Source: Eledone cirrhosa
Lineage: Eukaryota
DNA length: 64,000 nt
NCBI GenBank assembly: GCA_964016885.1
Contig: OZ024765.1
Coordinates: 13,764,001-13,828,000, forward strand
Reading direction: 5' to 3'
The position numbers were made by a program, and so were the translations under genes. Below are positions 3,054-63,853 of the stretch, piece after piece. The notes under the pieces are model-generated. The model saw only the letters and a list, made by a program, of their open reading frames with translations. It had not been told where the DNA came from and did not search any database. The first letter of the stretch is position 1. The number at the start of each line of letters is the position of its first letter.

Positions 3054-3094
<41 letters not shown>

Positions 3095-6000: not shown

Positions 6001-7722
6001 CAATTTTACCAGTGCATTACTGGTACTTTATTTTATCGACCCCGTAAGGATGAAAGGCAAAGTTAACCTCGGTGGGATTTGAACTCAGACCATAAAGGGT
6101 CATAACTCTATGCTGCAAAGCATGGTGTCTGACCCTCTACCGATAATGCCAATCTGCCATAATAATAATATTAATAATAATAATAATAATAATGATAATA
6201 ATAATAATGTAACTCCTTACAGAGGCAGTTATCTGTGTTACAGGTCTTGTGCTGTTTCAGTTGGATGGAGCAATTAGATGAATCTTTAGGTAACAGTTTT
6301 CTAGTTCTGGTCTTTTCACCTGTGTTACAAGTTCTAGAACATTCTGTCCAGTTTGACCAATTTGACACAGTACAGCCTACAAAATAAGAAAAAGTGGTGC
6401 GGTGGTAGAGTATAGCAGGCTTAAACCCTTTCGGGACCAACACAGATATATATTTATTCACAAATACTTAGAAATATACACAATTTAATGAATCAGTAAC
6501 AGCATGAATGAATGACTATAAAATAATACGCTTTTCCCTCCCTTTTCCCATTACTTCTGATGGAGCCCATCCCTCTCCAGGTCTGAATATAGTAGATTTC
6601 TTCCAGAAAAAGATAGTAAGTGAGAGAGGAAGTGAGAAAGAGATATTGAGAAAGAACCCATCACAGTACTTGACTGGTACTTTTTTTATCAACCTCGCAT
6701 GTGATGTGCATGGAGGATGACTGCTGAGTAAAGAAGTGCCAAGAAATCCCAGTAGAAAGAAGACGTAGTAGAGGAAGACCACGAAAATCATGGACCGAGG
6801 TGGTGAGAACTGACCTCAAATCGCTGAAGCTCGCGGAGGAAATGACGAAGGACCTTGACGAATGGAGAGATGGTATGCTGAATAGGACCCGTCCCACCCT
6901 TGCAAGCAGGGGGGGGGGGGTGGTGGACATAAAATGATGATGATGATGATGATGATGACTACTTCTCCTCTGTACTCGATATCACTGGACATAAGCAGGA
7001 TACAAAACCCTTGGTCTGTCTGGGAGATCAGTAGCTCGGCTTTAGTACTAACTTGGTCTGTGTAGACCTGTCCAACCCTTGCTAGCAATGCTAAGGAAAG
7101 GAAGACCAACAAATACATGTCTATACCAATGCAGTATTCTCTCCCGCATACTACAGCTTATCCCTCTTATACAGTCATGTCTTTATATATATGGTTTCTT
7201 ATATAGGCACAAGGCCAGCAATTTTGGGGCGGGGGAAAGTCGATTAAATTGACCCCAGTGCGTGACTGGTACTTTATTTTATTGACCCTGTAAGGATGAA
7301 AGACATAGTTAACCTCAGCAGGATTTGAACTCAGATCATAAAGGGCCGTAACTCTATGCTGCAAAGCATGGCGTTCAGCCCTCTACTGATACTGCCAATC
7401 CACTGCCCTTCATGTCTTTATATATATATAAAACCAAATAATGAAGGAAACTTACATGGCACATCTGTGTTGCATAATTCTTCCTGTACATTGAGACCTT
7501 CACATAACTGACCCGAACATTTAGGTAGAGGGTTAGAACAGGTCCTTTCTCTCAGTCGCACCCCACCTAAACAACTGGAACTGCAGCCTGACCATTCACT
7601 CCATTTTGCCCAGTTACCATCAACTAGAAATGAAAACAAAAACAAAACAAAAAAAAAATCAATCACCAGGTGTTACTTACTCGGCGTTGCCATCTGCACA
7701 AAAAAGCAATAGTTAAGTGTTG

Positions 7723-7762
<40 letters not shown>

Positions 7763-8052
7763 ATAATAATAAAATTGAAGACTAAAATCCAAAGAGGGCT
7801 CGATAAGGAAAATATATATCAAATATATAAGAACCGAAGAGCAATATATTTATAAAAATTATAAAATTATAAAAATAGACAAAGAAGCCTTCAATACATC
7901 AAAAGTCTTTATTAGCCTACAATGTTTCGTCCCATTAATCAGGACTCATCAGGCTCTGTTGTATTACATTGAGCTATACCATATACTGTCATTTCTATAA
8001 TTCTATAATACGACGAGTGTGTTTTACTCAAAAGCACTCTTGTATTTTAATT

Positions 8053-8109
<57 letters not shown>

Positions 8110-11554: not shown

Positions 11555-11587
<33 letters not shown>

Positions 11588-44073: not shown

Positions 44074-47000
44074 CAAAGAAAGTTTGGTAAGAAACCAGGT
44101 GGACCATAATGCACCAGAGTACTCAATACTTAGGGTAGTAGAGGGGGTAATAGGAAAAGAGTCAGGACCCCAACAGCTGAGCTCCGGCCATTTCGACAGC
44201 TAGATCCGAACGCCAGAGCTCAGCTGTCGGGGTCCTGACTCTTTTCCTATATATATATATATATATTTATAAATATAACAAAAATATATATATATATATA
44301 ACAATGATATGCATATATATATATATATAACAAAGGTATATAAATATATATATATATATATGCAGAGGTTATATTTAATTTGTTGGGATTCAATAAGCTT
44401 AAAGATTTTTATAACTGTTATAAAGCACTCAACAAGTTAATGGAGTAAATACACAATATATTAATATATGGAAACTATAATAAAATAAATATGGTTTTAT
44501 AAATATAGTTTCCATTTATTAATATATTGTATATATATATATGTGTGTGTGTTGTATAATGACATAGAGTTATATAGACAAAGACTGTTGTAGAATATAC
44601 AAGACAAACTTGTCATTAGATAGAATTACACAGACCAGGGATATTCCAGAACATACTAGAACAGATGAGACAGCAGATTAGACATAGTTGACATCTTGAT
44701 ATAAATTACATGTGGAAGAAGACACCCGATGTTGAGTGCTCAAATGACAAGGGAAGGGCTGCGATTGTTAAGCAACAATAGAAAGAAAGGGAGAAGGTGA
44801 TAGACTCTGCAACAGATAAAACAGCTAATGTTGACAAGATAGTCAACAAAACAGAAATGATATCTTGATGGACAGAGCCAGATGAGACAGTTAACCCTTT
44901 AGCATTTAAACCGGCCATATCCGGCCAGAATTCCCTCATCTCTCTCTGTTCAAACCAGCCATAACCTGCCGCTCATACTGATGTTAAGTTATTGTTCTCA
45001 AAATAAATAATATCAAAATTTCATAGATTCGATACTATGTGAGATAATTATGTCAGGTAAAGCATTTACTGTGAAAATACAATAGTATATATAGAGTAAT
45101 GTAAATGTTATGTGAGATATTATGTGAGGTAAAGCCTTTACTGTGAAAATACAATAGTATATATAGAGTAATGTAAATGTTATGTGAGATATTATGTGAG
45201 GTAAAGCCTTTATCCGAGAATTGAACTCACAACATTGCAAGCCCAATGCTCTAACCACTAAGCCATGTGCCTTCACTAAATAGTATATATAGGGTAATGT
45301 AAATGTTATGTTAGATATTATGTGAGGGAAAGTCTTTACTGTGAAAATACAATAGTATATATAGAGTAATGTAAATGTTATGTGAGGGAAAGTCTTTACT
45401 GTGAAAATACAATAGTATATATAGAGTAATGTAAATGTTATGTGAGATATTATGTGAGGGAAAGTCTTTACTGTGAAAATACAATAGTATATATAGAGTA
45501 ATGTAAATGTTATGTGAGATATTATGAGAAGGAAAGTCTTTACTGTGAAAATACAATAGTATATATATAGAGTAATGTAAATGTTATGTGAGATATTATG
45601 AGAAGGAAAGTCTTTACTGTGAAAATACAATAGTATATATAGAGTAAATGTTATGTAAGGGAAAGCCTTTACTACAAAAATACAATAATATATAATTGTT
45701 TCTACTCTTTGCACAAGACCAGCAATTACCCAGTACATTACTGGTACTTTATTTTATCGACCCCATAAGGATGAAAGGCAAAGTTAACCTCGGCGGGATT
45801 TGAACTCAGAATGGCAAGGGTTAATATTGACAGTACAGTGATGACCTCTTGACAGACAGGGATGACATGTTGACAGAGAGAACCAGAAGTAACATGTCTT
45901 GTCATAGTATATTACTGACAACAGATGAGTCAGTTAATGTTGACAACACAGGGTTGACATGTTGACAGACAGGGATGACATGTTGACATACAGGGCCAGC
46001 AATATCATGTCCTGTCATAGTATATTACTGACAGTAGATGAGACAATTAATTGTTTCTACTTTTGGCACAAGGCCAGCAATTATTTCAGTGTATTACTGG
46101 TACTTTATTTTATCGACCCTGTAAGGATGAAAGTCAAAGTTAACCTCGGCGGAATTTGAACTCAGACCATAAAGGGCTGTAGCTCTTTGCTGCAAAGCAT
46201 GGTGTCCGACCCTCTACTGATACTGCCAATCCACTGCCCTGCGAATCCAATGAGACAATTAATGTTGACAACACAGGGTTGACATCTTGACAGACAGAAC
46301 TAGAAGTAACATGTCCTGTCATAATATATTACTGACAGCATACATATATGACAATTAGTATTGACAAGACAGTCACAATACAGGGATGATATCTTGACAG
46401 AGAGGGATGACATGTTGACAAACAGAGCCAGCAATAATAACATGTCTTCTCATAGTATATTACTTACGAAACAGTGGCTTAAAACAGCCATGTATATCCA
46501 GTATGAGTTTCACACTTTTACTAACATCATATCTCTCAGTTATGAATATTTGGATCTTGTGGACTTGGAAACCATTTGGGAAATATACAGTTTCAGTAGC
46601 AGAAAATTTCTGAAAATATTGAAAATTTTGTGAATCATTCTAAATATCATTATAGAACATTCTGCACAATTTCTATGCTTCCACTAACAAAATATATTTA
46701 ACTAAGTATTACAATATGTTGGATATTAAAATCTCAAATGTGTGAATATCAGAGTTAATGTGAAAACATCTAAATTATAGATATCATGTTAAATATTTTT
46801 TCATATTTTATAAAATATATTTAGAAAACTATGTAAATTATTTATGTACGTGGCCTGATGGTAAGTGTGTTGGAATTACAATTCCTGGACTGCGTTGGAT
46901 GTTGTGTTCTTGAGCAAAATACTTCATTTAAACTTTGCTCCAGTATACTCAGCTGGAAATGAGTTCCAGCTATAGCTGGGGGGTTTAATCCAGTGATGGA

Positions 47001-50000
47001 TTGGTGTTTTGTGCCAGGGGAAGTTTTGAACTCTCAGTCACTTCATGACGCAGTAACAAGGATAAGCACTCTCCTGGTGGGCCTCTGTGCTTGAGACAGA
47101 CTTTAAGCTTGTAATGAACTGGCTTCATGTTTAGAGAGGATTCTTGTATTCTCAGTCATTTCACGACATGAAAACTGGGATAACAATTGGCTTGATGAGC
47201 CTCCAGGCTTGAGAGGGACTTTAATCCTAAAATGAACTGATGTCTTGTCCAGTGGGGGAGTCTTCTACTCTCAGTCAGTTAACACCACACAAACTAGGAT
47301 AAGCATCGCATTGATGAGCAATCAGATTTGAGACAGACTTTCGACTAGAATCTGAAGTCCCCTATAAAAATACAGTGACATATCTGAGTTGAATAATTAA
47401 TTAGCTATTTGTTAATTTTATATGAAATTATTTCGTAAATTTTGTATGCTATATAATATGAAGTCCCCTATAAGATGACAGCGCTATATATGGAGTCCCC
47501 ATTAAAAGACAGCTATATAATACGAAATCCCCTATGAAAGACAGCTATATAATATAAAGTCCCCTATAAAAAGACAGCTATATAACTTGAAGTCCCCTAT
47601 AAAAGACTGACATAACATGAAGTCCCTTATAAGAGACAGCAACCTAAAATGAAGTCCCCTATAAAAGATAGAGACATAATATGAAGTCCTCTATAAGAGA
47701 CAACAACCTAACATGAAGTCCCCTATAAAAGACAGAAACATAATATGAAGTCCCCTATAAAAGACAGCTATACAATGTGAAGTCCCCTATAATATGACTG
47801 TGACATAAGTGAGTTAAATACCTTTCCAAATGCTTGGAAATGTTCTTGCTCTATTTTCCTGTACATTAACATAAAACCTTTGATGTTTGTATGAACAATT
47901 AACTGCAAACTGGCCAAAGACACATCATAATTCTCACTGAGTTGGACGGTAATAACAACAAGTGGAGCTGAACTCTCAAACACCTCCTGGTCACGTCTAC
48001 CTTGGACTCCAACGGGTCTTAAACGATATGTTGGTACAGTCTTGTCTGTAGTTTTTATCCACTCATCTTTGATGTAAACTGGAGTTGATAAACCATTGCC
48101 TTTAACACAGGCCACCTCTCCCTCTGTGGGTGTTGTTGTGGTGGTTGTTGGTGCTGTTATTGTTATTGTGGTGGTTGTTGGTTTTGTTGTTGTTGGTGTC
48201 GTTATTGTTGCTGTTGTTGGTGGTATTGTTGCTGTTGTTGGTGTTGTTCTTGTTGCTGTTGTTGGTGTTGTTCTTGTTGAAGTTGTTGGTGTTGTTGGTG
48301 TTGTTGGTGTTGTTGATGATCTCTCTGTTGTTATTGTTGTTGGTGTTCTTGTTATAGCTGTTGTTGTTGTTGTTTGTGGAACTTCTAACAACAAGAGATG
48401 ATATTTTCAACATGGTTAATTATATGAGTTATATAAAGGTTTTATATATGGTTGATATTGTGTAGATTATGTTGTTATGTTACATAAAGAGACAAGATCC
48501 AGACCTCCTTCATTTACTGAATGGAGTGGAACTTGTCAAATAAGACAGAATTATATAGACAAAGACTGGTTGGAAAATATAAGAGACACACTTGTGTATA
48601 ACAATATAGACAGAATTATATAGACAAAGACTGGTTGCAAAATATAAGAGACACACTTGTGTATAACAATATAGACAGAATTATATAGACAAAGACTGGT
48701 TGTAAAATATAAGAGACACATTTGTGTATAACAATATAGACAGAATTATATAGACAAAGACTGGTTGTAAAATATAAGAGACAAACTTGTGTATAACAAT
48801 ATAGACAGAATTATATAGACCAAGACTGGTTGTAAAATATAAGAGATAAACTTATGTGTAATAACATAGATAGGGTTCTATAGACAAAGACTGTTGTAGA
48901 ACTTACTAGACAAACTTTTGTTTAGTAAGATAGATAGGTTATATAGACACATACTATTGTATAGTATACAAGAAAAACTTGTATATAACAAAAACTTGTG
49001 TATAACAACTATTAACATAGATAAGGATATATAGACAAAAATTGATTGTAGAATTTACTTTAAAACCTTGTGTATAACAATATAGGCAAGACACAGACTA
49101 TTGTAGAATATATTAGACAAACATGTGTATAACAATATAGACAGTATTGTATAGATAAAGACTATTTTAAAACATGCTTGACAAACTTGCGTTAAATAAC
49201 ATAGGTAGAATTATATAGACACTATTGTATAATATTCAAGACAAACTTGTGTATTATAAGTAATAACATAGATAGGATTATATAGACAAAGACTGGTTGT
49301 AAAATATACAAGACGAACTTCAGTTTAATAACATAGACAAAAATTATATACACAAAGATTGGGTGAATAACACAGTAGACAAACTTCTGTATAACAATAA
49401 AAACAGAGTTATATAGACAAAGACTGTTGTAGAATATATCAAACAAACTCATAGGTAATAAGACAGCATTATAAAAACAAGGATTGGTTGTAGAATATAC
49501 GAAAGAAACTTGTGTATAAGACCATAGACTGAAACATATACACAAAGACTGGTTGTAGAACATACTAGACAAACTTGTGTATAACACCTAATAACATACA
49601 TAGGGCTATATAGACAAAGATTGGTTGAAGAACATACTAGAAAGAATGACAGGAGATAAGACAATGTTGACAAGATAGTAAATAATTCAGGGATGTCATC
49701 TTGACAGACAGGGCCAGCAATATCATGTCCTGTCACAGTTGATGAGACAGTTAATGTTAACAGTACAGGGATGACATGTTGACAGACAGAACCAGAAGTA
49801 ACATGTCCTGTTGTAGTATATTATTGACAGGCATATATGACAATTAGTATTGACAAGACAATCAACAATACAAAGATGATATATCGACAGAGAGGGATGA
49901 CATGTTGACAAACAGAGCCAGCAATAATAACATGTTCTCTCAAAGTATATTACTTACGAAACAGTGGCTTAAAACAGCCATGTATATCCAGTATGAGTTT

Positions 50001-53000
50001 CACACTTTTACTAACATCATATCTGTCAGTTATGAATATTTGGATCTTGTTGGCTTGGAAACCATTTGGGAAATATACAGTTTCAGTAGCAGAAAATTTC
50101 TGAAAATATTGAAAATCATGTGAATCATTCTAAATATCATTATAGAACCTTCTGCATAATTATTATGCTCCCACTGTCAAAATATACTAAGTATTATAAT
50201 ACGTAAAATACTAAAATATCAAATGTGTTTGTAGATATTTTCATTTACTGCTAAATCTTTTCAGGATGTTAAGAGTTGAAGAAATTAATTTAATAAAAAA
50301 TATATTTAGTAATCTACATAAATTATTTATAATGTGAAGTCTCCTATAAAATGACAGCTATATCACTGAGTTTGAGAAGTTAAGGGTCAAAAGACTTGCT
50401 TAAGGGAGGTTTCTTCTCTGAAAACCTTCAGCTGTCCAGCTCACCCGAGAGTTTCTTACAACTTTGATAATTTTATTTTTAAAATGTTCTATAATCTGAA
50501 AAATATTTATATGAAGTCCCCTATATAATACAGTAACATAACTGAGTTAAAGAATTAATTAAATATTTGTTAATTTTATATAAAAATTATTTAGTAAACT
50601 TTGTAAACTATTTATAATATGAAGCTCCCTATAAAAGACAGAGACATAATATGAAGTCCTCTATAAGAGACAACAACCTAACATGAAGACCCCTATAAAA
50701 GACAGAAACATAATATGAAGTCCCCGGTAAAAGACAGCTATACAATGTGAAGTCCCCTATAATATGACTGTGACATAAGTGAGTTAAATACCTTTCCAAG
50801 TGGTTGGAAATGTTCTTGCTCTATTTTCCTGTACATTAACAAAAAACCTTTGATGTTTGTATGAACAATTAACTGCAAACTGGCCAAAGACACATCATAA
50901 TTCTCACTGAGTTGGACGGTAATAACAACAAGTGGAGCTGAACTCTCAAATACCTCCTGGTCACGTCTACCTTGGACTCCAACGGGTCTTAAACGATATG
51001 TTGGTACAGTCTTGTCTGTAGTTTTTATCCACTCATCTTTGATGTAAACTGGACTTGCTAAACCATTGCCTTTAACACAGGCCACCTCTCCCTCTGTTGG
51101 TGATGTTGTGGTGGTTGTTGGTGCTGTTATTGTTGTGGTGGTTGTTGGTGTTGTTGTGGTGGTTGTTGGTGTTGTTCTTGTTATTGCTGTGGCTGTTGTA
51201 GATGTTGTTGATGTTGTTCGTGCTGTTGTTGTTGCTGTTGTTCTTGTTATTGCTGTGGCTGTTGTAGATTTTGTTATTGTTGCTGTTGTTGGTGTTGTTG
51301 GTTTTATTGCTGTGGCTGTTGTTGTTGTTGTTGCTGTTGTTGTTGCTGTTGTTGTTGGTGTTGTTGCTGTTGTTGGTGGTGTTGTTGTTATTGTCGTTGT
51401 TGTTGGTGTTGTTGCTGTTGTTGGTGGCGGTGTTGTTGTTGTTGTTGTTGCTGTTGTTGTTGTTGTTTTTGTTGTTGTTGGTGGTGTTGTTGTTGTTGGT
51501 GTTGTTGCTGTTGTTGCTGTTGTTGGTGGTGTTGTTGGTGTTGCTGTTGGTGTTCTTGTTGCTGTTGTTGTTGGTGTTGATGTTGTTGCTGTCGTTGTTG
51601 CTTTTGTTGCTGTTGTTGTTGGTGTTGTTGTTGTTGTTGATCTTCCTGTTGTTATTGTAGTTGGTGTTCTTGTTATAGCTGTTGTTGTTGTTGTGGTGGT
51701 TGTTGGTGTAGTTCCTGTTGAAGTTGTTGGTGTTGTTGGTGTTGTTGGCGTTGTTGTTGCTGTTGTTGGTGTTGTTCTTGTTGCTGTTGTTGGTATTGTT
51801 GTTGCTGTTGTTCTTGTTGCTGTTGTTGGTGTTGTTCCTGTTGGTGTTGTTCTTGTTGTTGATGATCTCTCTGTTGTTATTGTAGTTGGTGTTCTTGTTA
51901 TAGCTGTTGTTGTTGTTGTTTGTGGAACTTCTAACAAGAGATGATATTTTCAACATGGTTAATTATATGAGTTATATAAAGGTTTTATATATGGTTGATA
52001 TTGTGTAGATTATGTTGTTATGTTACATAAAGAGACAAGATCCAGACCTCCTTCATTTACTGAATGGAGTGGAACTTGTCAAATAAGACAGAATTATATA
52101 GACAAAGACTGGTTGTAAAATATAAGAGACACACTTGTGTATAACAATATAGACAGAATTATATAGACAAAGACTGGTTGGAAAATATAAGAGACAAACT
52201 TGTGTATAACAATATAGACAGAATTATATAGACAAAGACATGTTGTAAAATATAAGAGACAAACTTATGTATAACAATACAGACAAAGATTAATTGTAGA
52301 CTAAACTAGACAAACATTTCTGTAATAACATAGATAGGGTTATATAGACAAAGACTGTTATCAAATTTACTAGGCAAACTTGTATATAACAATAGATAAA
52401 GTTATATAGACCAAGATTGGTTGTAATACATAGAAAACAAACTCGTGTATAACAATATAGACAGAATTATATAGACAAAGATTGGTGTAGAATTTACAAG
52501 ACAAACTTATGTAATATAAGCAATAACATAAACAATGTTATATAGACAAAGACTGGTTGTAAAATAAATAAGACAAACATGTATATAACAACATGTATAG
52601 AATTATGTAGACCAGGAGTGTTATAGAACATACTATATAAAATTGTATTTAATAACATAGACAGAATTAGATAGACAAAGATTATTGTTGAACATACAAG
52701 ATAAACACGTTTAATTACAAACAGAATTATATAGGCAAACATTTGTGTAGCATTTACTAGACAAACTTGTGCATAACAACATACTTAGGGTTATATAGAC
52801 AAAGACTATTGTGGAATATACTAGACAAACAAATGTATAACAACATGGACAGAATTATATAGACACTGTTGTAGAATATACTATACAAACGTATGTATAA
52901 TAAGTAATAATGTAGATGGAGTTATATAGACAAATGTTGGTTGTAAAATGTACGAGACAAACTTCAGTTTAATAACATAGACAAAATTATATACACTAAA

Positions 53001-56000
53001 ATTGGGTGAATAACATACTAGACAAACTTCTATATAACAATATGAACAGAGTTATATAGACAAAGACTGTTGTAGAATATACAAAACAAACTCACATGTA
53101 ATAAGAAAGACAGCATTATAAAAACAAAGATTGGTTGTATAATATACCAAAGAAACTTGTGTATAAAACCATAGAGAGAAATATATAGACAAAGACTGGT
53201 TGTAGAACATACTAGACAAACTTGTGTGTAACACCTAATAACATAGATAGGGTTATATAGACAAAGATTGGTTGAAGAACATACTAGAAGGGATGACAGG
53301 AGATAAGACAATATTGACAAGATAGTAAATAATTCAGGGATGACATCTTGACAAACAGGGCCAGCAATATCATGTTCTGTCATATTATATTACTGACAAC
53401 AGATGAGAGTTAATGTTGACAACACACGGTTGACATGTTGACAGAGAGAACCAGAGTAACATGTCCTGTCATAATATATTACTGACAGCATATATGACAA
53501 TTAGTATTGACAAGACAATCAACAATAAAGGGATGATATCTTGACAGACAGGGATGACATGTTGACAAACAGAGCCAGCAATAATAACATGTCCTCTTAT
53601 AGTATATTACTTACGAAACAGTGGCTTAAAACAGCCATGTATATCCAGCATGAGTTTCACACTTTTACTAATATCATATCTCTCAGTTATCAATATTTGG
53701 ATCTTGTGGACTTGGAAACCATTTGGGAAATATACAGTTTCAGTAGCAGAAAGTTTCTGAAAATATTGAAAATCATGTGAATCATTCTAAATATCATTAT
53801 AGAACATTCTGCATAATTATTATGCTCCCATTGTCAAAATATACTAAGTATTATAATACGTAAGATACTAAAATCTCAAATGTGTTTGTAGATATTTTCA
53901 TTTACTGCTAAATTATTTCAGGATGTTAAGAGTTAAAGAAATTAATTTAATAAGAGAATATTTAGTAATCTACATCATTTATTTATAATGTGAAGTCTCC
54001 TATAATATGACAGCTATATCAGTTAGAGAAGTTAAGGGTCAAAAGACTTGCTTAGGGGAGGTTTTTTCTCTGAAAACCTTCAGCTGTCCAGCTCACCCGA
54101 GAGTTTCTTACGACTTTGATAATTTTATTTTTAAAATGTTCTATAAACTGAAAATTATTTATATGAAGTCCCCTATATAATACAGTGACATAACTAAGTT
54201 AAAGAATTAATTAAATATTTGTTAATTTTATATAAAAATTATTTAGTAAACTTTGTAAACTATATATAATATGAAGCCCCCTATAAAAGACAGAGACATA
54301 ATATGAAGTCCTCTATAAGAGACAGCAACCTAACATGAGGTCCTCTATAAAAGATAGCAACATAATATGATGTCCCCTATAAAAGACAGCTATACAATGT
54401 GAAGTCCCCTATAATATGACTGTGACATAAGTGAGTTAAATACCTTTCCAAATGCTTGGAAATGTTCTTGCTCTATTTTCCTGTACATTAACATAAAACC
54501 TTTGATGTTTGTATGAACAATTAACTGCAAACTGGCCAAAGACACATCATAATTCTCACTGAGTTGGACGGTAATAACAACAAGTGGAGCTGAACTCTCA
54601 AACACCTCCTGGTCACGTCTACCTTGGACTCCAACGGGTCTTAAACGATATGTTGGTACAGTCTTGTCTGTAGTTTTTATCCACTCATCTTTGATGTAAA
54701 CTGGAGTTGATAAACCATTGCCTTTAACACAAGCCACCTCTCCCTCTGTGGGTGTTGTCGTGGTGGTTGTTGGTGCTGTTATTGTTGTTGTGGTGATTGT
54801 TGGTGTTGTTATTGTTGTTGTGGAGGTTGTTGGTTTCGTTGTTGTTGGTGTCGTTATTGTTGCTGTTGTTGGTGGTATTGTTGCTGTTGTTGGTGTTGTT
54901 CTTGTTGCTGTTGTTGGTGTTGTTCTTGTTGAAGTTGTTGGTGTTGTTGGTGTTGTTCCTGTTGGTGTTGTTCTTGTTGTTGATGATCTCTCTGTTGTTA
55001 TTGTAGTTGGTGTTCGTGTTATAGCTGTTGTTGTTGTTGTTTGTGGAACTTCTAACAACAAGAGATGATATTTTCAACATGGTTAATTATATGAGTTATA
55101 TAAAGGTTTTATATACGGTTGATATTGTGTAGATTATGTTGTTATGTTACATAGAGAGACAAGATCCAGACCTCCTTCATTTACTGAATGGAGTGGAACT
55201 TGTCAAATAAGACAGAATTATATAGACAAAGACTGGTTGCAAAATATAAGAGACAAACTTGTGTATAACAATACAGACAGAATTATATAGACAAAGACTG
55301 GTTGAAAAATATAAGAGACAAACTTGTGTATAACAATACAGACAGAATTATATAGACAAAGACTGGTTGTAAAATATAAGAGACAAACTTGTGTATTACA
55401 ATATAGACAGAATTATATAGACAAAGACTGGTTGGAAAATATAAGAGACAAACTTGTGTATAACAATATAGACAGAATTATATATACAAAGACTGGTTGT
55501 AAAATATAAGAGACAAACTTATGTATAACAATACAGACAAAGATTAATTGTAGACTAAACTAGACAAACATTTGTGTAATAACATAGATAGGGTTATATA
55601 GACAAAGACTGTTATCGAATTTACTAGGCAAACTTGTATATAACAATAGATAAAGTTATATAGACCAAGATTGGTTGTAATACATAGAAAACAAACTCGT
55701 GTATAACAATATAGACAGAATTATATAGACAAAGATTGGTGTAGAATTTACAAGACAAACTTATGTAATATAAGCAATAACATAAACAATGTTATATAGA
55801 CAAAGACTGGTTGTAAAATAAATAAGACAAACATGTATATAACAACATGTATAGAATTATATAGACCAGGAGTGTTATAGAACATACTATATAAAGTTGT
55901 ATTTAATAACATAGACAGAATTAGATAGACAAAGATTATTGTTGAACATACAAGATAAACACGTTTAATTACAAACAGAATTATATAGGCAAACATTTGT

Positions 56001-59000: not shown

Positions 59001-62000
59001 CAAAGACTGGTTGAAAAATATAAGAGACAAACTTGTGTATAACAATACAGACAGAATTATATAGACAAAGACTGGTTGTAAAATATAAGAGACAAACTTG
59101 TGTATAACAATATAGACAGAATTATATAGACAAAGACTGGTTGGAAAATATAAGAGACAAACTTGTGTATAACAATATAGACAGAATTATATATACAAAG
59201 ACTGGTTGTAAAATACAAGAGACAAACTTATGTATAACAATACAGACAAAGATTAATTGTAGACTAAACTAGACAAACATTTGTGTAATAACATAGATAG
59301 GGTTATATAGACAAAGACTGTTATCGAATTTACTAGGCAAACTTGTATATAACAATAGATAAAGTTATATAGACCAAGATTGGTTGTAATACATAGAAAA
59401 CAAACTCGTGTATAACAATATAGACAGAATTATATAGACAAAGATTGGTGTAGAATTTACAAGACAAACTTATGTAATATAAGCAATAACATAAACAATG
59501 TTATATAGACAAAGACTGGTTGTAAAATAAATAAGAAAAACATGTATATAACAACATGTATAGAATTATATAGACCAGGAGTGTTATAGAACATACTATA
59601 TAAAGTTGTATTTAATAACATAGACAGAATTAGATAGACAAAGACTATTGTTGAACATACAAGATAAACACGTTTAATTACAAACAGAATTATATAGGCA
59701 AACATTTGTGTAGCATTTACTAGACAAACTTGTGCATAACAACATACTTAGGGTTATATAGACAAACACTATTGTGGAATATACTAGACAAACAAATGTA
59801 TAACAACATGGACAGAATTATATAGACACTGTTGTAGAATATACTATACAAACTTATGTATAATAAGTAATAATGTAGATGGAGTTATATAGACAAATGT
59901 TGGTTGTAAAATGTACGAGACAAACTTCAGTTTAATAACATAGACAAAATTATATACACTAAAATTGGGTGAATAACATACTAGACAAACTTCTGTATAA
60001 CAATATGAACAGAGTTATATAGACAAAGACTGTTGTAGAATATACGAAACAAACTCACATGTAATAAGAAAGACAGCATTATAAAAACAAAGATTGGTTG
60101 TATAATATACCAAAGAAACTTGTGTATAAAACCATAGACAGAAATATATAGACAAAGACTGGTTGTAGAACATACTAGACAAACTTGTGTGTAACACCTA
60201 ATAACATAGATAGGGTTATATAGACAAAGATTGGTTGAAGAACATACTAGAAGGGATGACAGGAGATAAGACAATATTGACAAGATAGTAAATAATTCAG
60301 GGATGACATCTTGACAAACAGGGCCAGCAATATCATGTCCTGTCATATTATATTACTGACAACAGATGAGAGTTAATGTTGACAACACAGGGTTGACATG
60401 TTGACAGAGAGAACCAGAGTAACATGTCCTGTCATAATATATTACTGACAGCATATATGACAATTAGTATTGACAAGACAATCAACAATACAGGGATGAC
60501 ATGTTGACAAACAGAGCCAGCAATAATAACATGTCCTCTCATAGTATATTACTTACGAAACAGTGGCTTAAAACAGCCATGTATATCCAGTATGAGTTTC
60601 ACACTTTTACTAACATCATATCTGTCAGTTATGAATATTTGGATCTTGTTGGCTTGGAAACCATTTGGGAAATATACAGTTTCAGTAGCAGAAAATTTCT
60701 GAAAATATTGAAAATCATGTGAATCATTCTAAATATCATTATAGAACCTTCTGCATAATTATTATGCTCCCACTGTCAAAATATACTAAGTATTATAATA
60801 CGTAAAATACTAAAATATCAAATGTGTTTGTAGATATTTTCATTTACTGCTAAATTATTTCAGGATGTTAAGAGTTGAAGAAATTAATTTCATAAAAGAA
60901 TATTTAGTAATCTACATCATTTATTTATAATGTGAAGTCTCCTATAAAATGACAGCTATATCAGTTAGAGAAGTTAAGGGTCAAAAGACTTGCTTAGGGG
61001 AGGTTTTTTCTCTGAAAACCTTCAGCTGTCCAGCTCACCCGAGAGTTTCTTACGACTTTGATAATTTTATTTTTAAACTGTTCTATAATCTCAAAAATAT
61101 TTATATGAAGTCCCCTATAAAAGACAGTGACATAACTGAGCTAAAGAATTAATTAAATATTTGTTAATTTTATATAAAAATTATTTAGTAAACTTTGTAA
61201 ACTATTTATAATATGAAGCCCCTATAAAAGACAGAGACATAATATGAAGTCCTCTATAAGAGACAGCAACCTAACATGAAGTCCCCTATAAAAGACAGAA
61301 ACATAATATGAAGTCTCCTATAAAAGACAGCTATACAATATGAAGTCCCCTATAATATGACTGTGACATAAGTGAGTTAAATACCTTTCCAAATGCTTGG
61401 AAATGTTCTTGCTCTATTTTCCTGTACGTTAACATAAAACCTTTGATGTTTGTATGAACAATTAACTGCAAACTGGCCAAAGACACATCATAATTCTCAC
61501 TGAGTTGGACGGTAATAACAACAAGTGGAGCTGAACTTTCAAACACTTCTTGGTCACGTCTACTTTGGACTCCAACGGGTCTTAAACGATATGTTGGTAC
61601 AGTCTTGTCTGTAGTTTTTATCCACTCATCTTTGATGTAAACTTCACTTGATAAACCATTGCCTTTAACACAAGTCACCTCTCCCTCTGTGGGTTTTGTT
61701 GTGGTGGTTGTTGGTGCTGTTATTGTTGTTGTGGTGGTTGTTGGTGTTGTTATTGTTGTTGTTGTTGGTGTTGTTATTGTTGCTGTTGTTGGTGGTATTG
61801 TTGCTGTTGTTGGTGTTGTTCTTGTTGCTGGTGTTGTTCTTGTTGAAGTTGTTGGTGTTGTTGATGATCTCTCTGTTGTTATTGTTGTTGGTGTTGTTGT
61901 TTGTGGAACTTCTAACAACAAGAGATGATATTTTCAACATGGTTAATTATATGAGTTATATAAAGGTTTTATATATGGTTGATATTGTGTAGATTATGTT

Positions 62001-63853
62001 GTTATGTTACATAAAGAGACAAGATCCAGACCTCCTTCATTGACTGAAGGGAGTGGAACTTGTCAAATAAGACAGAATTATATAGACAAAGAATGGTTGT
62101 AAAATATAAGAGACAAACTTGTGTATAACAATATAGACAGAATTATATAGACAAAGACTGGTTGTAAAATATAAGAGACAAACTTGTGTATAACAATATA
62201 GACAGAATTATATAGACAAAGACTGGTTGGAAAATATAAGAGACAAACTTGTGTATAACAATATAGACAGAATTATATAGACAAAGACTGGTTAGAAAAT
62301 ATAAGAGACAAACTTGTGTATAACAATATAGACAGAATTATATAGACAAAGACTGGTTGTAAAATATAAGAGACAAACATATGTATAACAATACAGACAA
62401 AGATTAATTGTAGACTAAACTAGACTAACATTTGTGTAATAACATAGATAGGGTTATATAGACAAAGACTGTTATCGAATTTACTAGGCAAACTTGTATA
62501 TAACAATAGATAAAGTTATATAGACCAAGATTGGTTGTAATATATAGAAAACAAACTCGTGTATAACAATATAGACAGAATTATATAGACAAAGATTGGT
62601 GTAGAATTTACAAGACAAACTTATGTAATATAAGCAATAACATAAACAATGTTATATAGACAAAGACTGGTTGTAAAATAAATAAGACAAACATGTATAT
62701 AACAACATGTATAGAATTATATAGACCAGGAGTGTTATAGAACATACTATATAAAATTGTATTTAATAACATAGACAGAATTAGATAGACAAAGACTATT
62801 GTTGAACATACAAGATAAACACGTTTAATTACAAACAGAATTATATAGGCAAACATTTGTGTAGCATTTACTAGACAAACTTGTGCATAACAACATATTT
62901 AGGGTTATATAGACAAAGACTATTGTGTAATATACTAGACAAACAAATGTATAACAACATGGACAGAATTATATAGACACTGTTATAGAATATACTATAC
63001 AAACTTATGTATAATAAGTAATAATGTAGATGGGGTTATATAGACAAATGTTGGTTGTAAAATGTATGAGACAAACTTCAGTTTAATAACATAGACAAAA
63101 TTATATACACTAAAATTGGGTGAATAACATACTAGACAAACTTCTGTATAACAATATAAACAGAGTTATATAGACAAAGACTGTTGTAGAATATACGAAA
63201 CAAACTCACATGTAATAAGAAAGACAGCATTATAAAAACAAAGATTGGTTGTATAATATACCAAAGAAACTTGTGTATAAAACCATAGACAGAAATATAT
63301 AGACAAAGACTGGTTGTAGAACATACTAGACAAACTTGTGTGTAACACCTAATAACATAGATAGGGTTATATAGACAAAGATTGGTTGAAGAACATACTA
63401 GAAGGGATGACAGGAGATAAGACAATATTGACAAGATAGTAAATAATTCAGGGATGACATCTTGACAAACAGGGCCAGCAATATCATGTCCTGTCATAGT
63501 ATATTACTGACAACAGATGAGAGTTAATGTTGACAACACAGGGTTGGTTGACATGTTGACAGAGAGAACCAGAGTAACATGTCCTGTCATAATATATTAC
63601 TGACAGCATATATGACAATTAGTATTGACAAGACAATCAACAATACAGGGATGACATGTTGACAAACAGAGCCAGCAATAATAACATGTCCTCTCATAGT
63701 ATATTACTTACGAAACAGTGGCTTAAAACAGCCATGTATATCCAGTATGAGTTTCACACTTTTACTAACATCATATTTGTCAGTTATGAATATTTGGATC
63801 TTGTTGGCTTGGAAACCATTTGGGAAATATACAGTTTCAGTAGCAGAAAATTT
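969..63853 (-). CDS. Partial multi-exon gene: giant secreted mucin / SCO-spondin-like protein ([Thr-rich + FA58C-like]n, PTS ~4500 aa, TSP1/TIL/VWC tail); 28 exons in window, both ends outside
   Basis: All 28 exons have AG/GT boundaries and compatible phases. Summed length is 19,951 nt (6650 codons + 1). TSP1 (WxxWxxC..C..G.R.R), TIL and VWC cysteine patterns are recognisable. Confidence 0.9.
1595..1740 (+). mobile_element. CR1-like LINE 3' remnant
   Basis: Translates [18 protein letters not shown]...AATDSLLHQ, resembling the CR1 ORF2 C-terminus; contains a stop. Confidence 0.6.
1983..2087 (-). CDS. Exon: VWC domain middle
   Basis: atccag|CCC AAA GAT...TCA CCG|gtatgt; [24 protein letters not shown]. 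Confidence 0.9.
2572..2608 (+). ncRNA. Minimal type I hammerhead ribozyme motif (Penelope-like)
   Basis: TCTT-CTGATGA-A-GGAT(TAGC)ATCC-GAAAC-GTT-AAGA: core, stem II, palindromic ACGT stem III and 4-bp stem I. Confidence 0.65.
2863..3047 (-). CDS. Exon: TIL-like domain + VWC start
   Basis: tttcag|AT TGC AAG...AAA AAT|gtaagc; [62 protein letters not shown]. Confidence 0.88.
3093..3740 (-). mobile_element. Three tandem tRNA-derived SINEs separated by (AAT)n
   Basis: On the minus strand: GGCGGTGGATTGGCAGTATCGG (A-box), GAGTTCAAATCCC (B-box), conserved GCCTTTCATCCTTACGGGGTCGATAAAATAAAGTACCAG body. Confidence 0.88.
4762..5108. repeat. Near-perfect inverted repeat, ~167-bp arms, 13-nt spacer
   Basis: 4762-4928 is the reverse complement of 4942-5108, with one mismatch seen. 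Each arm carries a CTGATGA...GAAA hammerhead-like motif. Confidence 0.92.
5395..5562 (+). mobile_element. RTE LINE 3' end
   Basis: [15 protein letters not shown]...[10 protein letters not shown] plus (TGA)n tail. Confidence 0.75.
5580..5735 (-). CDS. Exon: TSP1 #7
   Basis: tttcag|CC AAC TGT...TGC G|gtatgt; [25 protein letters not shown]. Confidence 0.92.
5795..6160 (-). mobile_element. Two tandem tRNA-SINE copies
   Basis: Same family as 3093-3740. Confidence 0.85.
6221..6376 (-). CDS. Exon: TSP1 #6
   Basis: ttgtag|GC TGT ACT...CTC T|gtaagg; [25 protein letters not shown]. Confidence 0.9.
6695..6958 (+). mobile_element. RTE LINE 3' end
   Basis: [36 protein letters not shown]...RTRPTLASR plus (GAT)n. 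Confidence 0.8.
7192..7410 (-). mobile_element. tRNA-SINE
   Basis: Same family as 3093-3740. Confidence 0.85.
7456..7623 (-). CDS. Exon: TSP1 #5
   Basis: ttctag|TT GAT GGT AAC TGG...CCA T|gtaagt; [34 protein letters not shown]. Confidence 0.92.
7913..7958 (-). ncRNA. Hammerhead ribozyme motif
   Basis: AGC-CTGATGA-GTCC(TGATTAATG)GGAC-GAAAC-ATT-GTA-GGCT; stem I is imperfect. Confidence 0.6.
8223..8272 (-). CDS. Micro-exon: VWC-like end ([16 protein letters not shown])
   Basis: ccacag|C CAT TGC...ATT G|gtaagt; phase 2 to 1 links both neighbours. Confidence 0.82.
8752..8942 (+). mobile_element. tRNA-SINE in opposite orientation
   Basis: Same family, on the plus strand. Confidence 0.85.
8950..9195 (-). 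pseudogene. DNA transposase C-terminal fragment (hAT-superfamily-like)
   Basis: [15 protein letters not shown]...[17 protein letters not shown]...[18 protein letters not shown]; in-frame stop; family assignment is from recalled motifs. Confidence 0.6.
9533..9685 (-). CDS. Exon: TSP1 #4 C-part + VWC-like start
   Basis: atctag|A ACC ATT...ACA TG|gtaatg; [51 protein letters not shown]. Confidence 0.87.
9725..10195. repeat. 52-bp minisatellite x~9 filling an intron
   Basis: Unit ACCATTTCCTTACCGTGTTTCTAATGAAAGACACAAACATATTAAACTCTCA. Confidence 0.95.
10200..10275 (-). CDS. Exon: TSP1 #4, N-part
   Basis: caaag|GT TGT GCG...TTC AG|gtaagt; [26 protein letters not shown]. Confidence 0.88.
10332..10860 (-). 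mobile_element. Three tandem tRNA-SINE copies (last internally deleted)
   Basis: Same family; separated by CTTATATATAAT/TATCTAATATATAAT target-like repeats. Confidence 0.85.
11683..11729 (-). CDS. Micro-exon: VWC-like end ([15 protein letters not shown])
   Basis: ttacag|T GTA TGC...CAC T|gtaaga. Confidence 0.85.
11847..12108 (-). CDS. Exon: TIL domain + VWC-like start
   Basis: cactag|AA ACT CCT...AAA TG|gtaagt; [66 protein letters not shown]...ECNKC. Confidence 0.9.
12195..13037 (+). mobile_element. RTE LINE 3' fragment containing a 36-39-bp minisatellite (12385-12990)
   Basis: RRKLA*FGHV...[28 protein letters not shown], then ~16 copies of GATGGACTATTTTGAGTGTGGGTATTGATGGC.., then a (TGA)n tail. 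Confidence 0.8.
13290..13457 (-). CDS. Exon: TSP1 #3
   Basis: ttccag|AT GAG TGG...ACA G|gtaaat; [30 protein letters not shown]. Confidence 0.9.
13885..14060 (-). mobile_element. tRNA-SINE
   Basis: Same family as 3093-3740. Confidence 0.85.
14217..14461. mobile_element. Two ~80-bp Tc1/mariner-type MITE copies
   Basis: TA-CAGGGTGTCCCCAAAAATGTATACAC...GTGTATA(C/T)ATTTT..GGGACACCCTG-TA terminal inverted repeats. Confidence 0.65.
14483..14647 (-). CDS. Exon: TSP1 #2
   Basis: ttccag|AA ATG GGC TGT...AAC A|gtaagt; [25 protein letters not shown]. Confidence 0.9.
15005..15640. repeat. 95-bp minisatellite x~6.5
   Basis: GGAAACAATG recurs at 15011, 15106, 15201 and onward. Confidence 0.95.
15808..15854 (-). 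CDS. Micro-exon: VWC-like end ([15 protein letters not shown])
   Basis: ttacag|T ACT TGT...AAA G|gtttgt; completes the CNNC-TC motif; phase 2 to 1. Confidence 0.85.
17998..18920 (-). mobile_element. RTE-type LINE fragments (5' UTR and rearranged 3' end) in (TA)n
   Basis: Minus strand has GGCAGAATTCTAGGAGAAGGAAAACTCTGA, a recalled RTE 5'-UTR motif. C-terminal peptides are [14 protein letters not shown] and [11 protein letters not shown]. Confidence 0.6.
18921..19915. repeat. Complex (TA)n/(TATACA) microsatellite field
   Basis: Read directly from the sequence. Confidence 0.95.
20870..21112 (+). mobile_element. tRNA-derived CORE-like SINE
   Basis: TGGCCTAGTGG A-box, GCTCGATTCC B-box, GTGTTGTGTTCTTGAGCAAAA body. 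Relatives lie at 8385-9405 (split) and 46850-47105. Confidence 0.75.
21219..21326 (-). ncRNA. Type I hammerhead ribozyme motif with extended stem II
   Basis: AGTCT-CTGATGA-TCTGATTAAG...CTTAATCAGA-GAAAC-AATT-GTT-AGACT: 5-bp stem I, 10-bp stem II and palindromic ACAATTGT stem III. Confidence 0.72.
21812..21872 (+). ncRNA. Degenerate minimal hammerhead motif in Penelope-like repeat
   Basis: ATTTTAT-CTGATGA...GAAA-TATATA-TA-ATAAAAT; stem II is degenerate; same repeat family as 4240-4400, 4760-5108 and 44365-44530. Confidence 0.45.
22298..22487 (-). mobile_element. tRNA-SINE
   Basis: Same family as 3093-3740. Confidence 0.85.
22649..22936 (-). CDS. Exon: TSP1 #1 C-part + VWC-like start with long insert
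   Basis: ctgcag|G ACA TGT...AAT TG|gtaacc; [11 protein letters not shown]...[19 protein letters not shown]...IGCNNC. Confidence 0.85.
23655..23839 (-). mobile_element. tRNA-SINE with ~18-bp TSD
   Basis: Flanked by TTACTTTGAATAAATAAT on both sides. Confidence 0.9.
25000..25280. repeat. 72-bp minisatellite (copy 1)
   Basis: GTGAGATATTATGTGAGGTAAAGCCTTTACTGTGAAAATACAATAG...; same unit at 45035-45690. Confidence 0.9.
25385..25572. repeat. 47-bp minisatellite x4
   Basis: GCAGTCAC recurs at 25398, 25445, 25492 and 25539. Confidence 0.9.
25769..25841 (-). CDS. Exon: TSP1 #1, N-part
   Basis: tttcag|AT TTT TGG...AAC AG|gtaaaa; [25 protein letters not shown]; too short for the ORF track. Confidence 0.9.
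25890..26888. repeat. 46-48-bp minisatellite x~21
   Basis: TTAACCCTTTCGTTACCATATTTCTAATGAAAGACACTGTCTATATCT. Confidence 0.95.
27254..40747 (-). CDS. Giant mucin (PTS) exon, 13,494 nt, ~4,498 aa of TTPAKG-type repeats
   Basis: Open 4510-aa ORF 27225..40757. An in-frame TGA precedes the ATG. The first AG after the pyrimidine tract is ttacag|GC CAA and the donor is ATC G|gtaagt; phase 1-1. Confidence 0.92.
40866..41278. repeat. ~19-bp minisatellite (GTGGTCACATGRTGTCTTT) x~20
   Basis: Read directly; lies ~120 bp upstream of the giant exon acceptor. Confidence 0.9.
41779..43701. mobile_element. piggyBac-type MITE cluster with internal 117-bp tandem repeat (42320-42955)
   Basis: Left ends TTAA-CCCTTTCGTT..; right ends ..GGTATCAAAAGGA-TTAA (43562) and ..GTATCGAAATGG-TTAA (43700). 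Confidence 0.65.
43060..43435 (-). mobile_element. RTE (Rex3/Expander-like) LINE fragment
   Basis: [17 protein letters not shown]...[21 protein letters not shown]...[14 protein letters not shown], with stops. Confidence 0.75.
45035..45690. repeat. 72-bp minisatellite (copy 2), interrupted by a SINE head
   Basis: Same unit as 25000-25280. Confidence 0.9.
46468..46609 (-). CDS. Exon B1: C-half of last FA58C-like domain
   Basis: 142 nt; ends in phase 1, compatible with the giant exon acceptor. Confidence 0.85.
47822..48384 (-). CDS. Exon A1: Thr-rich linker + N-half of FA58C-like domain
   Basis: 563 nt; ...[26 protein letters not shown]...[20 protein letters not shown]|gt. Confidence 0.88.
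49958..50099 (-). CDS. Exon B2: C-half of FA58C-like domain
   Basis: 142 nt with conserved splice sites. Confidence 0.85.
50792..51930 (-). CDS. Exon A2: expanded Thr-rich linker + N-half of FA58C-like domain
   Basis: 1139 nt, phase 1 to 0; (ACA/CCA/GCA)n expansion; within ORF 50738..51937. Confidence 0.88.
53615..53756 (-). CDS. Exon B3: C-half of FA58C-like domain
   Basis: 142 nt; same peptide as B4. Confidence 0.85.
54444..55051 (-). CDS. Exon A3: Thr-rich linker + N-half of FA58C-like domain
   Basis: 608 nt, nearly identical to A4; within ORF 54390..55061. Confidence 0.88.
56869..57010 (-). CDS. Exon B4: C-half of FA58C-like domain
   Basis: 142 nt; [47 protein letters not shown]. Confidence 0.85.
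57698..58305 (-). CDS. Exon A4: Thr-rich linker + N-half of FA58C-like domain
   Basis: 608 nt, phase 1 to 0; within ORF 57644..58315. Confidence 0.88.
58463..59250. repeat. 65-bp intronic minisatellite x~12 (~3-5 copies in sister units)
   Basis: AGACAGAATTATATAGACAAAGACTGGTTG.AAAATATAAGAGACAAACTTGTGTATAACAATA. Confidence 0.92.
60557..60698 (-). CDS. Exon B5: C-half of FA58C-like domain
   Basis: 142 nt with the same splice sites as B6; ...[35 protein letters not shown]. Confidence 0.85.
61385..61911 (-). CDS. Exon A5: Thr-rich linker + N-terminal half of FA58C-like domain
   Basis: ttgttag|AA GTT CCA...GGA AAG|gtattt; 527 nt, phase 1 to 0; within ORF 61331..61921. Confidence 0.88.
63712..63853 (-). 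CDS. Exon B6: C-terminal half of FA58C/discoidin-like domain
   Basis: tttcag|AAA TTT TCT...CTG TTT C|gtaagt; 142 nt; [56 protein letters not shown] resembles the LRLELYGC end of FA58C. Confidence 0.85.

What the first reader, a model, noticed from the sequence alone, without database searches (positions are those of the whole stretch)
46468..63853. Hidden split discoidin (FA58C)-like domain repeated as a two-exon cassette
The ORF track shows only exon A and an antisense shadow of exon B. Splicing A(...FGK) to B(KFSAT...IHGC) builds a ~145-aa domain bounded by two Cys. Motifs line up with FA58C: C..G..IKDEWI ~ C..LG..I.D.QI, ITVQL ~ LQVDL, FMLMY ~ [17 protein letters not shown] ~ F.PPI.ARYIRI and KLILDIHGC ~ RLELYGC. 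The usual Trp residues are missing. Inference: a divergent lectin or cross-linking bead spaced by O-glycosylated linkers, analogous to CysD in gel mucins.
Basis: partly seen in the sequence, partly recalled or inferred. Interest (0 to 1): 0.7.

Follow-up and report, generated by a model that had tools for sequence, protein, structure and literature searches.

The report
Split discoidin repeats in octopod mucin
An octopus-type gene for a very large mucus-like protein repeats, at least five times, a pair of exons that likely splice into a small domain predicted to fold like the discoidin domains already known in mollusc mucins but too diverged for Pfam to call, and these beads likely serve as weak contact points along a probably sugar-coated chain.

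Summary
Observation confirmed. On the minus strand lie five complete two-exon cassettes plus one exon B at the window edge, all with GT-AG sites; joined, they read 1,432 codons without a stop. Each cassette gives a Thr-rich linker and a 138-residue Cys-to-Cys domain. Octopus vulgaris and Argonauta gene models have the same join (70-73% identity to O. vulgaris). The O. vulgaris domain folds confidently (pLDDT 86) and matches factor V/VIII C and neuropilin b domains (Z about 14); exon A alone does not fold (pLDDT 47). Pfam's cut-off is not met. No RNA run was listed, so splicing is unproven. Downstream come a 13.5-kb PTS exon and TSP1/TIL exons; the O. vulgaris relative has VWD-C8-TIL and LDLa upstream. 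F5/8 domains are already described as characteristic of lophotrochozoan mucins. The lectin reading is unsupported: F-type motifs are absent and the domain is about 15 residues shorter than its best matches. It is not a CysD; the likeness is positional. Likely role: weak multivalent contact bead in a secreted gel or glue. This scan noted similar discoidin mucins on other DNA of this genome. New variant of a known kind.

The parts
63712..63853 (-). Exon B, copy 0 (its exon A lies beyond the window edge)
   Evidence: AG/GT sites, 142 nt, phase 0 to 1
61385..61911 (-). Exon A, copy 1: Thr-rich linker plus first 96 residues of the domain
   Evidence: AG/GT sites, phase 1 to 0; linker 85 aa, 71% P/T/S
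60557..60698 (-). Exon B, copy 1: last 42 residues of the domain to the second Cys, plus 5 residues
57698..58305 (-). Exon A, copy 2
   Evidence: linker 112 aa
56869..57010 (-). Exon B, copy 2
54444..55051 (-). Exon A, copy 3
   Evidence: domain differs from copy 2 at 1 of 414 nt
53615..53756 (-). Exon B, copy 3
50792..51930 (-). Exon A, copy 4, with expanded 289-aa linker
49958..50099 (-). Exon B, copy 4
47822..48384 (-). Exon A, copy 5 (domain part 47822-48109)
   Evidence: 71 of 96 residues identical to O. vulgaris P0002
46468..46609 (-). Exon B, copy 5, last cassette of the array
   Evidence: 29 of 42 identical to P0002
27254..40747 (-). Giant PTS exon, 13,494 nt, about 4,500 aa, no Cys, phase 1 to 1; inferred next exon of the same gene
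   Evidence: Open frame, AG at 40747, GT at 27253; Thr 21%, Pro 12.5%, Ser 11%
14565..14645 (-). TSP1 exon of the inferred C-terminal tail (approximate ends)
   Evidence: Pfam TSP_1 E 3.5e-6, above cut-off
11846..12133 (-). TIL exon of the inferred tail (frame that holds it)
   Evidence: Pfam TIL E 1.4e-7, above cut-off
10199..10321 (-). TSP1 exon (frame that holds it)
   Evidence: Pfam TSP_1 E 1.3e-5
7421..7672 (-). TSP1 exon (frame that holds it)
   Evidence: Pfam TSP_1 E 6.9e-11
6290..6374 (-). TSP1 exon (approximate ends)
   Evidence: Pfam TSP_1 E 6.7e-7
5590..5735 (-). TSP1 exon (approximate ends)
   Evidence: Pfam TSP_1 E 5.4e-12 on the frame 5350-5826; ends
2930..3045 (-). Possible TIL exon (weak)
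   Evidence: Pfam TIL E 0.008, below cut-off

Best explanation
The region holds five complete copies of a two-exon cassette that likely splices into a Thr-rich linker plus a 138-residue domain predicted to fold as a trimmed discoidin (F5/8 type C) beta-sandwich, within a gene for a likely secreted VWD-type mucin, where the beads likely act as weak, non-covalent, multivalent protein-contact sites spaced by probably O-glycosylated linkers. Shown: exon structure, open frame, conserved join in two other octopods' gene models, downstream PTS, TSP1 and TIL coding exons. Predicted: the fold (on the 72%-identical O. vulgaris domain). Inferred: a disulfide between the only two Cys, which leaves no free Cys for covalent cross-links; an N-terminal VWD-C8-TIL/LDLa head (from the O. 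vulgaris relative); secretion and polymer formation; growth of the array by unequal crossing-over of a phase 1-0-1 unit. My odds: real discoidin-fold domain in a mucin-type protein about 0.9; given that, protein-protein contact in the gel or glue about 0.45, glycan binding 0.25, lipid or surface binding 0.1, no ligand 0.2.
For: 11 of 11 exons have GT-AG sites and join without a stop. O. vulgaris CAI9742241.1 carries the 138-aa domain with no gap against the window copies, 97-100 of 138 identical, after VWD, C8, TIL, five LDLa and a short PTS stretch. Two Argonauta hians models each hold two joined domains with a Thr-rich linker. In P0001, P0004, P0006 and P0007 similarity stops right after the exon A end and reads on as Val, as a GT donor would. 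AlphaFold2 of the joined O. vulgaris domain: pLDDT 86.1, pTM 0.82, mostly strands; window exon A alone: pLDDT 46.6, pTM 0.31. Foldseek: best E 7e-6, TM 0.57-0.66 to factor V/VIII C, neuropilin b, CASPR2, DDR2. VIA over 48,161 chains: Z 13.9-13.0, e.g. factor V C2 Z 13.8, rmsd 2.9, 131 aligned. ESM Atlas: F5/8 type C clusters at 0.92 by features (151-155 shared features, under the 170 typical of same-family hits) and TM 0.70 by its own model. Pfam F5_F8_type_C is the top hit on P0005, E 0.0027. 73 of 138 positions, both Cys included, are invariant in 7 of 7 sequences. F5_F8 domains are characteristic of lophotrochozoan mucin-like proteins (PMC4948705). For a bead role by analogy: MUC2 CysD1, tethered by a PTS segment, binds VWD1 and C8-2 non-covalently (PMC7599080).
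Against: No RNA evidence for the join; whether the two gene models rest on RNA was not seen. Pfam's cut-off is not reached (18.3 vs 28.2 bits on P0005; no hit on P0002, P0008 or on 5 of 5 window exon pieces) and no discoidin turned up in 3 sequence searches of the PDB. Intracellular members of the same superfamily tie in Z (IFT25 Z 13.4, rmsd 2.2), so the fold alone does not single out FA58C. The window's own joined domain was not folded, and the two folds differ in sequence and alignment depth (11 vs 7 rows). Among the five copies, 15 of 19 variable codons are non-synonymous, against 327 non-synonymous and 87 synonymous sites, about what drift gives, so current constraint among copies is not shown. 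No ligand or partner was tested. The gene's head and last exons lie outside the window, and linking the cassettes, giant exon and tail into one transcript is inferred from strand and phase.
Confidence: 0.45

Rival explanations
1. The beads are divergent lectins that cross-link the gel by binding glycans on neighbouring mucin chains or on microbes.
For: Sugar-binding CBM32 modules share the fold (Z 10-12.5). Several invariant polar residues (Arg31, Arg38, Glu42, His73, Asn75, Arg122, Asp124, Lys127) could cluster at the ligand end by canonical topology (inferred, coordinates not available). The host chain is likely heavily O-glycosylated.
Against: F-type lectin fucose and calcium motifs (PMC5712786) are absent in 7 of 7 sequences. 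CBM32 rows rank below factor V/VIII and neuropilin rows. Only one Trp is present. In Dictyostelium discoidins GalNAc binding is attributed to the H-type domain.
Confidence: 0.22
2. The domain has lost its ligand site and serves as a protease-resistant, non-glycosylated spacer; the array grew by neutral unequal crossing-over.
For: About 15 residues shorter than factor VIII C2 over the aligned range (model 6-147 vs chain 2173-2329); consensus Trp words absent; variation among copies looks neutral; copies 2 and 3 differ at 1 of 414 nt.
Against: Length (138 aa) and 73 positions, many polar, are kept across the window, O. vulgaris and Argonauta; Argonauta also carries tandem copies; the last cassette's exons stay within 0.9-2.6% of the others while its A-B intron differs by about 33%.
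Confidence: 0.18
3. The protein is an adhesive (egg, sucker or skin glue) and the beads bind lipid or solid surfaces, as factor V C2 binds membranes and as tandem FA58C proteins act in echinoderm adhesion.
For: The reconstructed order VWD/TIL/LDLa - central repeats - TSP1/TIL matches flatworm Mlig-ap2 (PMC6410801, PMC8621496); sea urchin nectin has six tandem FA58C domains (PMC10057474).
Against: No expression data. No sequence link to these proteins was found. The trimmed loops and single Trp argue against hydrophobic membrane spikes (inferred). Mucin- and SCO-spondin-labelled proteins occur in ordinary octopus skin mucus (PMC11431876).
Confidence: 0.1
4. Exon B is not spliced to exon A, or the array is an assembly artefact or pseudogene.
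Against: Two other species' models have the same join; no stop or frameshift in 11 of 11 exons; copies carry distinct alleles that also appear in public DNA contigs of one sample, which may be the window's own source; exon A alone does not fold.
Confidence: 0.05

Closest known systems
Lophotrochozoan gel-forming mucin-like proteins with F5_F8 domains, and insect hemolectin (Lang et al. 2016, PMC4948705; passages, section 15 and a search of supplement file 2 read)
   Same: F5/8-type domains beside PTS segments behind VWD-C8-TIL units (head seen in the O. vulgaris relative).
   Different: Here the domain falls below Pfam's cut-off, is repeated at least 5-6 times with 97-99.8% nucleotide identity, and the tail seen is TSP1/TIL rather than two further VWD units. 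'Octopus' does not occur in that paper's supplement file 2 (file 1 not searched).
Octopus vulgaris 'mucin-2-like' CAI9742241.1 and Argonauta hians GAB1608770.1 / GAB1608769.1 (gene models)
   Same: Same 138-aa domain, same A-B join, Thr-rich linkers; 70-73% identity to O. vulgaris.
   Different: The domain carries no annotation in those records; the models hold one or two copies and stop just after exon B, so they look truncated.
FA58C / discoidin domains of factor V/VIII, neuropilin b1/b2, DDR1/2, CASPR2 (PF00754)
   Same: Predicted jelly-roll sandwich, Z 13-14, rmsd 2.6-3.5 over about 130 residues; Cys at both ends in register.
   Different: 10-18% identity, about 15 residues shorter, consensus Trp words absent, ligand unknown.
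Macrostomum adhesive protein Mlig-ap2 (PMC6410801, PMC8621496; passages read) and SCO-spondin
   Same: Overall order VWD/TIL/LDLa head, long central repeat region, TSP1/TIL tail.
   Different: No sequence comparison to the Mlig-ap2 repeats could be made here; those papers assign no domain to them in the passages read. This gene adds a 4,500-aa PTS exon.
CysD domains of MUC2/MUC5 (PMC7599080; passages read)
   Same: Small folded module repeated between PTS segments.
   Different: CysD is about 100 aa, has its own fold, several disulfides, two calcium ions and WxxW; none of these motifs is here.

Membership tests
FA58C / discoidin domain (PF00754) | Score at or above the Pfam gathering cut-off (28.2 bits) | tested here: not met
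   18.3 bits, E 0.0027 on P0005; no hit on P0002, P0008 or 5 of 5 window exon pieces
FA58C / discoidin domain (PF00754) | Jelly-roll beta-sandwich of about 8 core strands | tested here: met
   Predicted model of the O. vulgaris domain, pLDDT 86; Z 13-14 and TM about 0.6-0.66 to FA58C structures; superfamily members such as IFT25 tie
FA58C / discoidin domain (PF00754) | Cys at both ends joined by a disulfide (feature recalled) | tested here: inconclusive
   Exactly two Cys, at positions 1 and 138, in 7 of 7 sequences; ends in register with factor V/VIII C2 ranges; S-S distance not available
   Strict core and end patterns match 0 of 7; a relaxed end pattern matches 7 of 7
FA58C / discoidin domain (PF00754) | Phase-0 intron at the position of F8 intron 25 | tested here: inconclusive
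   F8 intron 25 lies between c.6900 and c.6901, phase 0 (PMC6058261 passages); counting back from aligned C-ends puts it within about 3 residues of the A-B join, using a recalled 19-residue numbering offset; no residue-level alignment seen
FA58C / discoidin domain (PF00754) | Ligand binding through loops at one end of the barrel | not testable with these tools
   Needs binding assays
F-type lectin | Fucose motif His-X24-Arg-X-Asp-X4-Arg/Lys and calcium motif h2DGx | tested here: not met
   0 of 7 sequences, spacing relaxed to 22-28 (motifs from PMC5712786; test)
Mucin CysD (Mucin2_WxxW) | WxxW motif and multiple disulfides | tested here: not met
   One Trp and two Cys in 7 of 7; no Pfam hit
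Gel-forming mucin (Lang et al. definition) | PTS domains | tested here: met
   Linkers 70-76% P/T/S; giant exon 45% P/T/S, no Cys
Gel-forming mucin (Lang et al. definition) | Three N-terminal VWD-C8-TIL units | tested here: inconclusive
   Outside the window, no genome held; the O. vulgaris relative shows 2 VWD, 1 C8, 2 TIL matches in an apparently partial model
Gel-forming mucin (Lang et al. definition) | C-terminal cystine knot; fourth VWD unit | not testable with these tools
   Gene end lies beyond the window start; none among 19 candidate frames scanned
SCO-spondin-like / Mlig-ap2-like architecture | LDLa repeats after the VWD head and a TSP1/TIL tail | tested here: inconclusive
   5 TSP1 and 1 TIL exons above cut-off in the window; five LDLa only in the O. 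vulgaris relative; no orthology test

The most novel reading that the evidence does not exclude
A cephalopod subfamily of loop-trimmed discoidin domains, invisible to Pfam, has taken over the job CysD does in vertebrate mucins: self-associating or head-binding beads whose number and spacing, set by copying or skipping a symmetric two-exon cassette, tune an octopod gel or glue; the unassigned central repeats of flatworm adhesive proteins with the same architecture would be the same kind of module.
Probability: 0.15. Interest if true: 0.62.

Novelty: new variant of a known kind. Interest (0 to 1): 0.33.

Why it matters
It gives a fold to an unannotated domain in octopod mucin-type genes and shows why annotation misses it: split over two exons, below Pfam's cut-off, and in models that stop early. 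It supplies a small, expressible unit with which to ask what F5/8 domains do in invertebrate mucins, and whether they play the cross-linking part of CysD. The pairing of F5/8 domains with lophotrochozoan mucins is already in print, and this scan has noted similar genes elsewhere in this genome, so surprise is modest.

Tried and rejected
RNA check: no RNA holder listed; the three runs offered are one sample whose contigs run through the introns, and no A-B joint appeared among the joints listed, which says nothing on expression. Contig depth over the exons was about 5-9 times that of nearby single-copy intron pieces; the tool says depth is no copy number, so I take it only as a hint that the array is real. 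No whole genome is held, so the gene head and total copy number are unknown. Homologue searches: 2 of 67 candidates, 0 of 101, 2 of 7,991, 5 among 1.84 billion representatives; both named relatives are octopods; long proteins are poorly covered, so a narrow range is not proven. PDB sequence searches gave nothing or unrelated weak hits (EtpA E 3e-4 from four 5-6 bit stretches, rejected). Second ESM search, unnamed clusters only, gave 0.91 hits with 131-142 shared features, uninformative. Pairwise comparisons of two tail exons with P0002 showed nothing; one was in the wrong frame. 12 of 19 candidate downstream frames had no informative Pfam hit above cut-off apart from those listed. An invariant His90...Arg122-x-Asp124 looks like the F-type motif but has spacing 31 and likely lies elsewhere in the fold; rejected. 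No four-gamete conflict within exon B. Literature: searches (listings only, open-access library) showed no paper on this octopod domain; two searches gave no useful review of discoidin loops. PMC11232871 passages did not give the RS1 intron position.

Full report
Observation. The window is AT-rich animal DNA with no N. Between 46468 and 63853 the minus strand carries six copies of a 142-nt exon B and five copies of a 527-1,139-nt exon A, alternating, with unit spacing 3.2-3.7 kb. All 11 exons have an AG acceptor after a pyrimidine-rich run and a GT donor. Exon A enters in phase 1 and leaves in phase 0; exon B enters in phase 0 and leaves in phase 1. Joined in a script they give 1,432 codons with no stop. 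Each A+B pair yields a domain of 138 residues from Cys to Cys (96 from A, 42 from B), preceded by a linker of 85, 112, 112, 289 or 97 residues that is 70-76% Pro/Thr/Ser with no Cys and no N-glycan sequon.

Is the join real? Four lines support it. (i) An O. vulgaris model named mucin-2-like (CAI9742241.1, P0002) has the same domain without a gap, 97-100 of 138 residues identical, with the join at the same place. Two Argonauta hians models each hold two joined domains separated by a Thr-rich linker. These are gene models; I did not see their RNA support. (ii) In four database proteins that look like genomic read-throughs (P0001, P0004, P0006, P0007; 43-75% identical to exon A) similarity ends at the exon A donor. 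(iii) Exon B matches P0002 at 29 of 42 residues; 0 of 20,000 shuffles reached this. (iv) The joined O. vulgaris domain folds with pLDDT 86.1 and pTM 0.82, while window exon A alone gives 46.6 and 0.31; the two jobs differ in sequence and depth (11 and 7 rows). Direct junction reads are lacking: no RNA holder was listed.

Fold. Foldseek found 119 PDB chains at E up to 0.001, led by factor VIII, neuropilin b, CASPR2, factor V C2 and DDR2 (best E 7e-6, TM 0.57-0.66). A full search of 48,161 representatives gave Z 13.9-13.0 for factor V/VIII, neuropilin, CASPR2, Dictyostelium discoidin I and DDR1 (factor V C2: Z 13.8, rmsd 2.9, 131 aligned, 14% identity), with IFT25 tied at 13.4 and CBM32 modules at 10-12.5 (second look). 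The ESM Atlas, with its own model, gave F5/8 type C clusters at 0.92 by features and TM 0.70 by structure; its top feature hit was an unnamed eukaryotic cluster. Pfam F5_F8_type_C is the top but sub-threshold hit on P0005 (18.3 bits, cut-off 28.2, E 0.0027) and is absent on P0002, P0008 and 5 of 5 window exon pieces. So the fold is the galactose-binding-like jelly roll. FA58C descent is the best reading, given the terminal Cys pair, the extracellular setting and the weak Pfam hit, but formal Pfam membership is not met. Over the aligned range the domain is about 15 residues shorter than factor VIII C2; I infer that the loss falls in the ligand loops, from recalled topology. F8 intron 25 is phase 0 (PMC6058261, passages) and falls within about three residues of the A-B join by end-counting with a recalled numbering offset; suggestive only.

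Surroundings. After the last exon B comes a 13,494-nt exon (27254-40747, phase 1 to 1) coding about 4,500 residues rich in Thr, Pro and Ser without Cys, then five TSP1 exons and one TIL exon above Pfam cut-off and one weak TIL, out of 19 frames scanned. P0002 has VWD, C8, TIL and five LDLa matches before the domain. The inferred protein is therefore VWD-C8-TIL/LDLa head, six or more linker-discoidin beads, a PTS rod and a TSP1/TIL tail. No genome is held, so head, end and total copy number are unseen.

Evolution of the array. Domain exons differ by 0.2-3.5% between copies, like the introns of copies 1-4; the last cassette keeps exons within 0.9-2.6% of the others while its A-B intron differs by about 33%. 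Of 19 variable codons 15 are non-synonymous, against 327 to 87 sites, so recent variation looks neutral, on small numbers. Across the window, O. vulgaris and Argonauta the length and 73 of 138 positions are invariant, which points to long-term constraint. A phase 1-0-1 unit can be copied or skipped in frame; copying is evident, skipping is untested.

How it likely works. Inferred: a secreted, O-glycosylated polymeric mucin whose beads are closed by one internal disulfide. With only two Cys there is no spare thiol, so any cross-linking would be non-covalent, with avidity from repetition. The precedent is MUC2 CysD1, which is tethered by a PTS segment and clasps VWD1 and C8-2 (PMC7599080, passages), but CysD has another fold, calcium and WxxW, all absent here. 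Lectin activity is the main rival: F-type motifs (PMC5712786, passages) match 0 of 7 sequences, and the same review notes that factor V C2 binds phospholipid, not sugar. A ligand-less spacer and an adhesive surface binder are the other rivals.

Comparison with what is known. Lang et al. 2016 (PMC4948705; passages, section 15, supplement file 2 searched, file 1 not) state that the F5_F8 domain is characteristic of lophotrochozoan mucin-like proteins and that insect hemolectin has such domains after three VWD-C8-TIL units; 'Octopus' has 0 occurrences in file 2, and its domain figures could not be seen. Flatworm Mlig-ap2 has the same head, central repeats and TSP1/TIL tail (PMC6410801, PMC8621496; passages). 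Sea urchin nectin has six tandem FA58C domains (PMC10057474; passages). Octopus skin mucus holds mucin- and SCO-spondin-labelled proteins (PMC11431876; passages), with no link shown to this gene. Searches listed no paper on this domain; subscription journals are mostly missing. The scan's own unchecked notes describe similar discoidin mucins on other pieces of this genome; they are not support.

Verdict. Real, well-supported structural identification; function open. New variant of a known kind; interest 0.33.

Noticed in passing
window 27254-40747 (-): A single 13,494-nt coding exon of about 4,500 residues built from nested PTS repeats, with no Cys; its Lys/Glu-containing repeat differs from the Thr-rich linkers of the cassettes.
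   Followed up: partly
window 2930-14645 (-): Run of TSP1 and TIL exons forming a SCO-spondin-like tail; further Cys-containing frames at about 22651-22935 and 9535-9684 end like VWC starts but have no Pfam hit.
   Followed up: partly
window 46864-46979: Very high copy repeat inside the last A-B intron (summed contig depth over 100,000); this intron is 1,212 nt against 686-692 nt in the other cassettes.
   Followed up: no
window 48539-63402: The B-to-A introns are made largely of a 65-bp tandem repeat whose copy number varies between cassettes; the A-B introns hold a 32-bp repeat. These could drive unequal crossing-over.
   Followed up: no
window 46468-61911: Alleles in exon A and exon B group the copies differently (A3 with A5 at one site, B2 with B3 at five), a hint of conversion or crossover between cassettes.
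   Followed up: partly
window 26000-26887 and 42262-42950: Related intronic tandem repeats (48-bp and 117-bp units sharing a core) flank the giant exon on both sides.
   Followed up: no
P0002, P0005, P0008: All three public models end a few residues after exon B, so they appear to be fragments of much longer genes.
   Followed up: no
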